DNA from: Rhina ancylostomus | Lineage: Eukaryota | NCBI GenBank assembly: GCA_030265395.1 | Contig: JARFYF010000084.1 | Coordinates: forward strand, 87,648,337-87,712,336 | DNA length: 64,000 nucleotides | Reading direction: 5' to 3' | Made by a program: the position numbers | Part shown: positions 36,801 to 39,800 of the stretch, in pieces | How the letters are laid out: every line of letters begins with the position of its first letter | How positions within the stretch are numbered: the first letter of the stretch is position 1

Positions 36801-39800
36801 AGTAGAAAGTTTGTTTATAAATAAAAGTCCTAATTTGCTTTTTACTTTTAATTGCTTTATGATAAGGCAAGTTTTACTAATTGGAAAAGTTCTTAATTTT
36901 GAAATATCTTTGATGACTTGTATATATTTGTTTTACAGTTCTATTTTACAACCACAAAGTCCATAGTCATTTTTATTTAAAAATGTGAAACTTCATAATA
37001 ATTTGAGAATTACCTTCAAGTGTATTTCCCAGGATTGGAGGAACAAGATTATTTTATCTGCAGTTACAAGTTTTGTTGAGATTTCATGAATATCTACTGA
37101 GCAAAGTTTTGTGAACGAAAGCTTCATTTCATTTTAACATGTGCATTTGTTCTGCTAAATATGGTTTTGTGTGGATTTTGTTTTAGAATAGCTATAATTA
37201 TAATAAACTCTGTGCTCCCTTTATGGGATAATTCACCCACTTTGGAAGGAAGGCTGTGCATTAGTGGCACCAGAAAACGNNNNNNNNNNNNNNNNNNNNN
37301 NNNNNNNNNNNNNNNNNNNNNNNNNNNNNNNNNNNNNNNNNNNNNNNNNNNNNNNNNNNNNNNNNNNNNNNNNNNNNNNNNNNNNNNNNNNNNNNNNNNN
37401 NNNNNNNNNNNNNNNNNNNNNNNNNNNNNNNNNNNNNNNNNNNNNNNNNNNNNNNNNNCTCGCTTCATGGATATGTGTGAATTGAATTGTAGCTTCTTAA
37501 CACTGCAGCCAATGCATGTTTGAAATAAGTACTAAAGCACCAAAGTAGTGGTGCTGTTGATGGGTGGAGTTCATGTACATGCAATGGAAGAGGACTTGTG
37601 TGGATTACAAAGACGGGGACTGAATTTTTGGGCTGAATGCCTATTTTCTGCGCTGCATACTTTTTATGAGCATCATGCCCAATTATGAAAGTAATCTCCC
37701 TGCTGAATCATTTTAAATATTGATTTAATTTGGTTGCAAAGACTGTCTTCAATTAGCTTGCAGCTTGTATAGGCAATTAATTAGCCTATAACTACAAGGG
37801 CATGTAATCCTTTGATACACTCTCCCTGGTCACTGCACCAATCTTCAGAACTTGAAATTTGAACCCATTCTCATTCGAATCTTCCCAGAAGGAGGAAAGC
37901 AAATGATGGGAAACTTTTTTTCAGTTTTCTGTTCGGGTTGGCAGGTATCAATCGCGTGGAATGCAAACACTGAAGAAACTCCCAGATTTTATTGCTCATT
38001 GAAATCTATTGTCTATAAAGAAGAACAAGGATCCAGAAGTATGGGTTTTGACTCTTGAGTGTGGAGAGGTATGATAGGAACACTTTTTTTCATTTGAAAT
38101 AAAATGGCACGTAATAGCAGTGAATGTAGGATCGGATCTTTGAGGCATCTGTGGAATATGCTGTTGTCTAATAAGGCATTCTGAAGAGCTTTCCACAAAC
38201 AAGATACAACTATTTTCAATACATGTTTGACTCTGACCAACTCCATCCTCCATCTGCAGCCACCCACAGCCTAAGTCCACAGTTCCTTCCTTTCTGCATT
38301 TGCCCTACTATCTGCCATGATATTTTTAACATTGAGAGGATTAATGCTGTAAGTTTACTCCCTTGTCCTAGTTTAGTCTTGCCCCAATGGTAGAACTCTT
38401 GCCTCTCAGTTACAAGACTATGGATTCAAGTTCTCTTTGGGAGTCTTGAGAACATAATGCAGGCTAATCATATTCATCTAACTCTACTCTTAGTGAGCCA
38501 CATGTAGGATGATCTGTTAAGTTGAAGCATCTTTTTCCCTCTGGAAGAATGCAAGAAATCCTTGTACACTATTTGAAGTGAAGGGAAATTGTCCAGTGTC
38601 CTGACCAACATTCATCCTTCAACCAAAACTGCTTTGGCAGGGGGTGGGGGGGATGGGAGAGGACAGATAGAAACTTTGCTTTCCTCCTTCTGGGAAGATT
38701 CAAATGAGAATGGGTTTAAATTTCAAGTTCTGAAGATTGCTGGAGTGACCAGGGAGAGTGTATCAAAGGATTACATGCCTTGTAGTTATAGGTTAATTAA
38801 TTGCCTATACAAGCTGCAAGCTAATTGAAGACAGTCTTTGCAACCAAACTAAATCAATATTTGAAATGATTCAGCAGGGAGATTACTTTCATAATTGGGC
38901 ATGATGCTCATAGCAATTTGCAAATAGCAATTTGCAACTGCTCTTCCAAGAAGCGTGTCTGGTTCTTAAATGTCTTCATTGGCTGCAAGGGATTTTAGAG
39001 CATTATGAAATTCTGAGTTTTTCTTGCAACTTTTGATTGTCCTCAGAAAAGGCCTTTCATTTGCCAGTCTCAATAATACCAATTTGGTATGGGCTCTTTC
39101 TTTGCTTCCCAAGCTCAAATCCCATGTGCATACACGACTGACAACCAACTGAGCAATTTATCACTAGCTCCAGGGTTGTATCATTGGCTCTCCAGCTTAG
39201 CTTATTTTTGATTGGCTCAATCACAGTCATCCTGGGGAGGAGTGAATGAGCCAAATGTCTTCGCTACCAATCTCTGCCAGTAGGTTGCCCTGAGTTAAAG
39301 CCCTGACATTTTCCCCTGACTTCTTCCTCTAGCAGTAGACTTTGTATGTTGTTCTTGTTGCCTTCGAAATCCACTACTGCTGTCCTTTCTAAGCCTTAAC
39401 CTATCTATTTGTCTCCAACTTTCCTTTTTTTGTGTGTATTACCAACCTACGCTACCTTTACTCCATTTTCTGCCGCTGACATGCTCCTGAAACAGCTATA
39501 ACCAAAATCACAAATGGTGCCCTTTGTGTTTCAGCTTTGCAGACATCCCTCCAAGTTCCTTTGAAGCGTTTGCTGCATTTAACCACAGTGCCCTTTAGTC
39601 TCTGGCACACCTAGTTGAGCCACTGCCTCACAGTGCCATAGACCCAGGTTCAATCCTAACCTTTGGTGCTCTCTGCAAAGAGTTTGCACGTTCTCCCTGT
39701 GACCACCTAGGCTTTCTCTAGGCACGGGCTAGAAGGTTAACTGACACTGTAAATTGCCCCTNNNNNNNNNNNNNNNNNNNNNNNNNNNNNNNNNNNNNNN

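What the first reader, a model, noticed from the sequence alone, without database searches (positions are those of the whole stretch)
37665..38912. Recent ~239-bp inverted duplication of apparently unique sequence that can form a long dsRNA/DNA stem
Seen: arms 37665-37903 and 38675-38912 are reverse complements (7 substitutions and 1 indel, ~97%) around a 771-bp spacer. They are far more similar to each other than any repeat pair I compared here, and the arm resembles no repeat family I recognise. In a + strand transcript the differences would be 3 G-U wobbles, 2 A-C mismatches, one G-G, one C-C and one bulge. Known: long intramolecular duplexes are substrates for ADAR and Dicer and can affect splicing or back-splicing. 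Inference: if this region is transcribed, it is a lineage-specific editing or endo-siRNA hairpin. No function is shown.
Basis: partly seen in the sequence, partly recalled or inferred. Interest (0 to 1): 0.65.

Follow-up and report, generated by a model that had tools for sequence, protein, structure and literature searches.

The report
Young 239-bp inverted duplication, no function shown
Two nearly identical 239-base copies of a non-coding sequence face each other about 770 bases apart in repeat-rich fish-like DNA; this is most likely a neutral copying accident, and nothing shows that it makes a working RNA hairpin.

Summary
Arms 37665-37903 and 38675-38912 are reverse complements: 239 aligned columns, 7 substitutions, 1 indel, 96.65% identity, E about 1e-110, 771-nt spacer. 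It is the strongest of 13 self-matches in the window.

The arms, spacer and flanks have no third copy in the 64 kb. They match no Rfam family and show no protein domain. The 5:2 transition:transversion ratio, one change at a CpG, and 3% divergence argue for two real genomic copies, not a fold-back chimera. The unit does lie on a 2.3-kb contig between two N runs.

My best reading (0.5) is a neutral local inverted duplication made by replication template switching or break repair. Rivals are a long-TIR non-autonomous transposon, two insertions of one mobile element, and misassembly.

The decisive test, genome-wide copy number, could not be run because no eukaryotic DNA collection was available. 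Transcription, editing and small RNAs are also untested. If transcribed, passive ADAR hyper-editing is the likeliest fate. The finding is ordinary in kind and of low interest.

The parts
37665..37903 (.). Left arm of the inverted repeat (239 nt, 37% G+C, one CpG)
37904..38674 (.). Spacer, 771 nt, 41% G+C. No Pfam domain, no Rfam family, no internal palindrome, no similarity to the arms.
38675..38912 (.). Right arm (238 nt), reverse complement of the left arm
38372..38461 (+). Stretch of the spacer that aligns in direct orientation with 39595-39688 in the right flank. I read both as decayed tRNA-derived SINE heads; that name is recalled, and Rfam and ARAGORN do not support a tRNA.
   Evidence: local score 26 vs shuffles 15.8 +/- 2.0, max 23; negatives
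38910..38937 (+). Perfect 14-nt tandem duplication (2.0 copies) whose first 3 nt are the last 3 nt of the right arm. Possible junction scar or microhomology.
37659..37665 (+). 7-mer ACTTTTT at the outer edge of the left arm, repeated at 37913-37919, 9 nt inside the spacer. TSD-like but weak.
   Evidence: background 2.3% per random 239-nt segment
37280..37458 (.). 179-N run, 206 nt left of the left arm; left end of the 2303-nt contig that carries the whole unit. The contig's right end is the 42-N run at 39762-39803.

Best explanation
This is a true but functionless local inverted duplication in non-coding, repeat-rich DNA of a cartilaginous-fish-like vertebrate genome. In one DNA-level event, 239 nt were copied in reverse-complement orientation about 1 kb from their source. 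The event was a replication template switch or synthesis-dependent repair of a break. The two copies have since drifted apart neutrally to 3% (K2P 0.030). The event itself is inferred; only its product is shown. I suspect the right arm is the derived copy. From recall, not from any tool, the spacer's right part and the sequence just beyond the right arm look like consecutive parts of one old SINE that the arm interrupts, without a target-site duplication. At the RNA level the unit would form a 239-bp near-perfect stem only if a transcript ran through all 1248 nt. In that case the expected fate in a vertebrate is passive ADAR hyper-editing, not a selected function. At the DNA level the 771-nt spacer is too long for easy cruciform extrusion (recalled knowledge). 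The arms could support occasional flipping of the spacer or gene conversion between the arms (inference).
For: Sharp edges at all four arm ends, and no weaker inverted or direct similarity continuing into the flanks. Only two copies in the 64 kb, even with word-7 blastn and nhmmer. No target-site duplication of 3 nt or more flanks the whole unit (sequence, alignment). No transposase, RT or other domain in 10 of 10 ORFs of the contig, and none in 233 of 233 ORFs of >=60 aa in the window. No internal direct repeats in the arms. The spacer contains what looks like an ordinary decayed SINE head with a counterpart 1.2 kb downstream, so it looks like host DNA and not a transposon interior. A perfect 14-nt tandem duplication overlaps the outer right junction by 3 nt, the kind of scar that replication or repair junctions leave. 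The substitution pattern is 5 transitions, 2 transversions, one at a CpG, as expected for real mutational drift. Short-range template switching is documented to create single inverted repeats near their source (PMC7954356, passages read).
Against: Genome-wide copy number could not be measured, so 'two copies only' holds for 64 kb and not for the genome. Both outer ends of the repeat are TA, which fits a Tc1/mariner target-site duplication. The documented template-switch events span tens to hundreds of nucleotides (PMC7954356); this copy is 239 nt and lies 771 nt away, so it is at or beyond that scale. A 7-mer (ACTTTTT) flanks the left arm plus 9 nt (background 2.3%), which could instead mark the left arm as an insertion. 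The polarity argument rests on a recalled SINE consensus that no tool here confirmed: neither the spacer nor the right flank has another copy in the window, and Rfam and ARAGORN see no tRNA-like head. The unit sits 206 nt from an N run on a short contig.
Confidence: 0.5

Rival explanations
1. A single non-autonomous DNA transposon of 1248 nt with 239-nt terminal inverted repeats (long-TIR Tc1/mariner-like or foldback-like), inserted at a TA.
For: The outer ends of the repeat are TA...TA. The size and geometry fit a non-autonomous element. The outermost 49 nt of the arms are identical, as expected if the termini are the functional part. No coding capacity is needed for such elements (one search finds none).
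Against: TA is palindromic, so it is merely the last two paired bases of the repeat; roughly 1 in 10 random ends would show it in 37%-GC DNA (my estimate). No paired direct repeats occur inside the arms. There is no third copy or fragment in the 64 kb. An 83-aa ORF across the right arm found no candidate in the 5.8-billion-protein set, and the 102-aa spacer ORF had 0 relatives among 1.84 billion representatives; both are weak tests, because the sequence is non-coding. The spacer holds a decayed SINE-like head that, from recall, seems to continue beyond the right arm. That could not happen if the arm were a transposon terminus.
Confidence: 0.2
2. Two independent insertions, in opposite orientation, of one young ~240-nt mobile element (SINE-like or MITE-like), as with inverted Alu pairs.
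For: Both copies start and end at the same positions, as full-length elements would. A 7-mer direct repeat flanks the left arm plus 9 nt. Nearby inverted copies of young repeats are the usual source of such stems in animals (PMC9989829, passages).
Against: A family young enough for 97% identity between copies, yet with no other copy or fragment in 64 kb, is unlikely. All other repeats in the window are 65-82% identical. There is no tail, no internal terminal repeats and no tRNA/7SL/5S match in the arm. No target-site duplication flanks the right arm. The 7-mer has a 2.3% background per segment before correcting for the several places I looked.
Confidence: 0.08
3. Assembly artefact: two real paralogous copies exist somewhere, but a short-contig or gap-closing error created their head-to-head arrangement 771 nt apart.
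For: The unit lies on a 2303-nt contig between a 179-N and a 42-N run, with the left arm 206 nt from the gap; the window has 19 N runs. Elsewhere a 100-N gap is flanked by 46-nt direct copies at 95.7%. That looks like an unmerged contig overlap and shows that the assembly has local errors at gaps.
Against: The arms differ at 8 positions with a biological-looking spectrum, so this is not one sequence used twice, as in a fold-back chimera. Divergence of 3% is far above the heterozygosity I would expect for such genomes (recalled), so the arms are not two alleles. Both arm-spacer junctions lie inside one uninterrupted contig.
Confidence: 0.1
4. A selected RNA hairpin: a lineage-specific hpRNA/endo-siRNA precursor, an ADAR/MDA5-relevant dsRNA, or a pair of intronic complements driving back-splicing.
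For: The stem is long and nearly perfect on either strand. It meets the operational criterion used for potential intramolecular dsRNA: reverse-complement alignment >=80%, >=50 nt, within a 4001-nt window (PMC9989829 methods passage). Long dsRNA from inverted repeats is the main ADAR substrate and MDA5 ligand class in mammals (bioRxiv 10.1101/2022.08.29.505707, passages).
Against: There is no evidence of transcription. No exon, domain or known RNA family lies anywhere near. The arms show no similarity to any coding sequence that could be a target. In Drosophila the hpRNAs silence specific selfish genes (PMC10317233, PMC10292708, abstracts in listing only). In mammals canonical RNAi from long dsRNA is constrained outside oocytes (PMC11239679, PMC6391682, abstracts in listing only). 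Drift at 8 positions, including 4 true mismatches and a bulge, shows no sign of compensatory maintenance.
Confidence: 0.05

Closest known systems
Short-range template-switch ('four-point') events and larger replication-based inverted duplications
   Same: A reverse-complement copy placed close to its source, giving a single inverted repeat with sharp edges and no target-site duplication. There is a possible 3-nt overlap plus a small tandem scar at one junction (PMC7954356 passages).
   Different: Described events use templates within tens to hundreds of nucleotides; this copy is 239 nt and lies 771 nt from its source. Neither the ancestral state nor the switch points can be seen without an outgroup.
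Nearby inverted copies of young repeats that form ADAR-edited intramolecular dsRNA (inverted Alu/B1-type pairs)
   Same: Geometry and stem length; it meets the BLAST criterion used to call potential intramolecular dsRNA (PMC9989829 passage).
   Different: The arms are not shown to belong to any dispersed family (no third copy in 64 kb). At 96.7% identity they are more alike than independently inserted repeat copies usually are (my expectation, not measured). Transcription and editing are untested.
Hairpin-RNA (hpRNA) endo-siRNA loci of Drosophila and hairpin siRNA loci of mouse oocytes
   Same: An inverted duplication able to give a stem of a few hundred bp.
   Different: Those loci are defined by Dicer-dependent small RNAs and by arms derived from a target gene (PMC10317233, PMC10292708, abstracts in listing only). 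Neither could be shown here, and the arms look non-coding.
Long-TIR non-autonomous DNA transposons (Tc1/mariner IR-DR type; foldback elements)
   Same: Terminal inverted repeats of about 240 nt, total length 1.25 kb, TA at both ends.
   Different: No paired direct repeats within the arms, no sub-repeat structure, no further copies in the window, and a spacer that looks like host DNA with a decayed SINE head. The typical terminal motifs of that superfamily are recalled, not tested.

Membership tests
Potential intramolecular dsRNA / ADAR-substrate inverted repeat | Reverse-complement alignment >=80% identity and >=50 nt within about 4 kb (criterion in PMC9989829 methods) | tested here: met
   96.65% over 239 columns, arms 771 nt apart; criterion read
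Potential intramolecular dsRNA / ADAR-substrate inverted repeat | Both arms lie in one transcript | not testable with these tools
   No expression data. No exon or domain in 233 of 233 ORFs >=60 aa.
Potential intramolecular dsRNA / ADAR-substrate inverted repeat | Clustered A-to-G mismatches in RNA reads | not testable with these tools
   No RNA-seq available
hpRNA / hairpin endo-siRNA locus | Long inverted duplication giving a stable stem | tested here: met
   Duplex -412.7 / -407.8 kcal/mol vs -70 +/- 6 with a shuffled partner; the full-length fold keeps the stem
hpRNA / hairpin endo-siRNA locus | Dicer-dependent 21-23-nt small RNAs from both arms | not testable with these tools
   No small-RNA data
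hpRNA / hairpin endo-siRNA locus | Arms derived from, and complementary to, a target gene | tested here: inconclusive
   No Pfam domain in arm-overlapping ORFs; no protein relative of the 83-aa arm ORF; the genome itself could not be searched
Tc1/mariner-type long-TIR (IR-DR) non-autonomous transposon | Terminal inverted repeats | tested here: met
Tc1/mariner-type long-TIR (IR-DR) non-autonomous transposon | TA target-site duplication | tested here: inconclusive
   TA at 37665-37666 and 38911-38912, but TA is palindromic and counts as the last two paired bases of the repeat
Tc1/mariner-type long-TIR (IR-DR) non-autonomous transposon | Two direct-repeat binding sites within each arm (IR-DR) | tested here: not met
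   No direct repeat >=12 nt (seed 6) inside the arm
Tc1/mariner-type long-TIR (IR-DR) non-autonomous transposon | Many dispersed copies in the genome | not testable with these tools
   No eukaryotic DNA collection. There is no third copy in 64 kb. The arm 24-mer is absent from bacterial/archaeal contigs, which says nothing about the host genome.
DIRS-like retroelement (inverted terminal repeats) | Internal complementary region matching the arm ends; RT / tyrosine-recombinase coding remnants | tested here: not met
   Arm vs spacer local scores of 13 and 16 lie within shuffles; 0 Pfam families in 10 of 10 ORFs
Replication/repair-made local inverted duplication | Reverse-complement copy close to its source, with sharp edges | tested here: met
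Replication/repair-made local inverted duplication | No target-site duplication; microhomology or a small scar at junctions | tested here: inconclusive
   No flanking duplication of >=3 nt around the unit. A 14-nt tandem duplication overlaps the right arm end by 3 nt. A 7-mer flanks the left arm plus 9 nt (background 2.3%). The 8-mer GAAACTTT lies near or across both inner junctions.
Replication/repair-made local inverted duplication | Exactly two copies genome-wide; one arm absent at the orthologous site of an outgroup | not testable with these tools
   No genome or related genomes available
Fold-back chimera / assembly artefact | Arms identical because one sequence is used twice | tested here: not met
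   7 substitutions and 1 indel

The most novel reading that the evidence does not exclude
The unit is transcribed, for example within a long intron, a UTR or a germline non-coding RNA. Its 239-bp near-perfect stem would then be a lineage-specific hairpin that feeds Dicer (an hpRNA-like endo-siRNA source) or must be edited by ADAR to avoid dsRNA sensing. That would be a long-hairpin small-RNA or editing locus in a cartilaginous fish, born from unique sequence and not from a transposon.
Probability: 0.04. Interest if true: 0.6.

Novelty: new member of a known kind. Interest (0 to 1): 0.2.

Why it matters
As it stands it matters little. Nearby inverted copies are a known, common by-product of replication errors and transposition, and most are neutral. 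Three modest uses remain. (1) It is a clean, datable example (3% divergence) of a mid-sized inverted duplication of apparently unique sequence, larger than the short-range template switches catalogued in apes. (2) It is a marker for checking the local assembly. (3) It is a ready candidate for an editing or small-RNA survey if RNA data exist for this species. Only a positive RNA result would make it interesting.

Tried and rejected
Rfam. The whole window at gathering thresholds gave 0 matches. The contig at E<=10 gave one chance match, a fungal snoRNA at E 4.8. The left arm alone gave two chance matches at E 3.8 and 7.1. The SINE-like head alone gave 0. ARAGORN found 0 tRNAs.

Pfam. Ten long ORFs of the window gave only a sub-threshold zinc-domain match: E 0.021, 15 bits against a cut-off of 28, at 28605-28949. 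All 233 stop-free, N-free ORFs of >=60 aa gave 0 families at E<=0.01. ORFs of 50-59 aa (163 of 396) were not scanned, so short exons can be missed.

Protein proxies for copy number.
- The 83-aa ORF across the right arm found no candidate.
- The 102-aa spacer ORF had 0 relatives among 1.84 billion representatives.
- As a positive control, a LINE-tail ORF (10931-11365) found 1549 proteins.
- These negatives are weak, because non-coding ORFs are rarely predicted as proteins.

DNA scans of genome contigs (bacteria and archaea only). An arm 24-mer gave 0 hits. A 25-nt motif from the right flank with wildcards gave 10 loci, with about 4 expected by chance by my estimate; all match the motif only. 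So I fetched no host-derived SINE copy, and the recalled 'SINE split by the right arm' idea stayed untested.

Structure. I looked for an older, weaker inverted or direct repeat in the flanks, for a nested palindrome in the spacer, and for arm-like pieces in the spacer. All were within shuffles except the SINE-head pair. I rejected a DIRS-like element, an IR-DR structure and an LTR pair (LTR pairs are direct, not inverted).

Closed or absent resources. Paper supplements were closed, so the event-size tables of PMC7954356 were not seen.
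Full report
WHAT IS THERE.

The repeat finder returns it as two abutting inverted segments split at the one indel: 37665-37799/38778-38912 (135 nt, 98%) and 37799-37903/38675-38779 (105 nt, 96%). blastn gives one alignment of 239 columns with 7 mismatches and 1 gap, 96.65%, E 9e-111. An alignment carrying 40 nt of flank on every side shows that similarity stops abruptly at all four arm ends.

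The differences are five transitions (37714, 37728, 37784, 37861, and 37876 in a CpG), two transversions three bases apart (37835, 37838), and one extra G at 37798. For a - strand RNA it gives 2 G-U and 3 A-C. Uninterrupted identical runs between differences are 49, 13, 55, 13, 36, 2, 22, 14 and 27 nt.

Of 13 non-self matches in a window self-comparison (E<=1e-5) it ranks first at 392 bits, with the next at 202 bits and 82%. It is the only one with >=92% identity over >=60 nt. The dispersed repeats are 65-82% identical.

CONTEXT.

The window is a gapped draft with 19 N runs, which I left untouched. The whole unit lies on a 2303-nt contig, 37459-39761, between a 179-N and a 42-N run. The left arm starts 206 nt after the gap.

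The window carries CR1-type LINE tail fragments. The ORF at 10931-11365 found 1549 proteins. The named ones are bird CR1-like 'hypothetical'/'reverse transcriptase' entries and one Chiloscyllium punctatum protein (58% identity). The best hit, an unnamed ENA protein, is at 74%. Nothing suggests human sequence.

I found no gene. There were 0 Pfam families in 233 of 233 stop-free ORFs of >=60 aa, one sub-threshold match among ten long ORFs, 0 Rfam families at gathering thresholds and 0 tRNAs. ORFs of 50-59 aa (163 of 396) were not scanned, so short exons may be missed.

THE UNIT ITSELF.

The arms are 37% G+C, full of stop codons and without a domain. They match no Rfam family; only chance matches at E 3.8 and 7.1 appeared. 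The spacer (771 nt, 41% G+C) likewise has no domain and no Rfam match beyond a chance one. Its longest ORF (102 aa) has no relative among 1.84 billion representative proteins.

Neither arm, spacer nor flanks has any further copy in the window, even with word-7 blastn or nhmmer at E<=10. There is no weaker, older inverted or direct similarity in the flanks, no nested palindrome in the spacer, and no arm-like piece in the spacer. All local scores fall within shuffles. The one exception is that spacer 38372-38461 aligns in direct orientation with 39595-39688 (score 26 against 15.8 +/- 2.0, maximum 23). I read these as two decayed tRNA-derived SINE heads. That name is recalled; Rfam and ARAGORN do not see a tRNA there.

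JUNCTIONS.

The outer ends are TA...TA. This fits a Tc1/mariner target duplication. But TA is palindromic, so it is simply the last paired dinucleotide of the repeat. No direct duplication of 3 nt or more flanks the whole unit.

A 7-mer, ACTTTTT, lies at the outer edge of the left arm and again 9 nt inside the spacer. In 17,903 random 239-nt segments of this window a shared exact 7-mer in comparable zones occurs in 2.3% (6-mer 8.9%, 8-mer 0.6%). Given the several places I looked, this is weak.

The 8-mer GAAACTTT lies 6 nt inside the spacer from the left arm (37910-37917) and across the inner junction of the right arm (38670-38677). The window holds 6 copies of it, with 4.9 expected. I cannot fit this into a simple switch model and leave it unexplained.

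At the outer right junction a perfect 14-nt tandem duplication (38910-38937) begins with the last 3 nt of the arm. This could be a 3-nt microhomology plus a slippage scar. That is an inference.

HOW IT AROSE.

I rank a single local inverted duplication first (0.5). Its supports are the sharp edges, two copies only in view, no target duplication, no transposon anatomy and a spacer that looks like ordinary host DNA. Template switching is documented to produce single inverted repeats near their source, though over tens to hundreds of nucleotides (PMC7954356, passages). The present event is larger.

A recalled lead strengthens this. The right part of the spacer and the sequence just beyond the right arm look to me like consecutive parts of one SINE common in sharks. 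If so, the right arm is an insertion into that SINE without a target duplication. I could not test this. There is no repeat library, no other copy in the window, and a motif scan of bacterial/archaeal contigs for host contamination returned chance hits only.

The rivals are:
- a 1248-nt non-autonomous transposon with 239-nt terminal repeats (0.2);
- two insertions of one young element (0.08);
- a misjoined short contig (0.1).

The eight differences, with a 5:2 transition bias and a CpG change, exclude a fold-back chimera, because that would reuse one sequence. At 3% they are too many to be alleles (heterozygosity recalled). So two genomic copies exist, and only their arrangement rests on the contig.

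AGE.

The K2P distance is 0.030. With assumed neutral rates of 2.2e-9 to 2e-10 per site per year this is about 7 to 75 million years. The rates are my assumption, not a result. Gene conversion between the arms would make this an underestimate. 'Recent' is therefore true only relative to the other repeats in the window.

WHAT IT DOES.

Nothing is shown. On paper either transcript would form the full stem. The arm-arm duplex is -412.7 (+) and -407.8 (-) kcal/mol, against about -70 +/- 6 with a shuffled partner. The 1248-nt + strand fold has an MFE of -608 kcal/mol with the whole stem kept in both the MFE and the centroid structure.

The pair meets the operational criterion used in a 22-species editome study for potential intramolecular dsRNA. 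That study concludes that animal A-to-I editing primarily targets dsRNA formed by young repeats (PMC9989829, passages). In human cells most immunogenic dsRNAs are inverted repeats, and the ones that matter are mainly in UTRs (bioRxiv 10.1101/2022.08.29.505707, passages).

So, if transcribed, passive hyper-editing is the expected fate. An endo-siRNA role would need efficient dicing of long dsRNA. In mammals that is constrained outside oocytes (PMC11239679, PMC6391682, abstracts in search listing only), and it is unknown for cartilaginous fishes. Drosophila hpRNAs target specific selfish genes (PMC10317233, PMC10292708, abstracts in listing only); here no target is visible. I give a selected RNA function 0.05.

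VERDICT.

This is a new instance of a known kind of feature and of low interest. The deciding data are genome-wide copy number, repeat annotation, long reads, outgroup loci and RNA reads. The metagenome and viral collections and the paper supplements were closed, and no eukaryotic DNA collection was offered.

Noticed in passing
window 53246-53291 and 53392-53437: Two 46-nt direct copies (95.7%) sit immediately on either side of the 100-N run 53292-53391. This looks like two contig ends that overlap but were not merged, i.e. a false gap.
   Followed up: no
window 10931-11365 (+), 16071-16415 (-), 49152-49451 (+), 61326-61736 (-): ORFs resembling the C-terminal tail of CR1-type LINE reverse transcriptases. 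The first found 1549 relatives, including bird CR1-like entries and a Chiloscyllium punctatum protein. The copies are 67-71% identical to each other at the DNA level, and Pfam does not recognise them.
   Followed up: partly
window 31160-31375 and 32123-32335: A 218-column direct repeat at 82% identity, 748 nt apart. The second copy starts right after the 37-N run 32086-32122.
   Followed up: no
window 38372-38461 and 39595-39688; also 39647-39703 vs 31594-31538: tRNA-SINE-like heads in direct orientation on the same contig. The downstream one has a 75% relative elsewhere in the window. The family names are recalled only.
   Followed up: partly
window 38910-38937: A perfect 14-nt tandem duplication abuts and overlaps the outer end of the right arm by 3 nt. 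It also contains a short palindrome (pair I3).
   Followed up: partly
window 37740-37790 (and its mirror in the right arm): The centre of the arm is rich in AATTA/TAATTA-type motifs of the kind bound by homeodomain proteins (seen by eye). Whether the arm is a conserved non-coding element could not be tested without other genomes.
   Followed up: no
window 40247-40359, 52809-52923, 54268-54361: Three copies of another dispersed repeat at 76-78% identity; not identified.
   Followed up: no
window 22874-22919 and 22939-22984: 46-nt direct copies, 95.7% identical, 20 nt apart; a small local tandem duplication.
   Followed up: no
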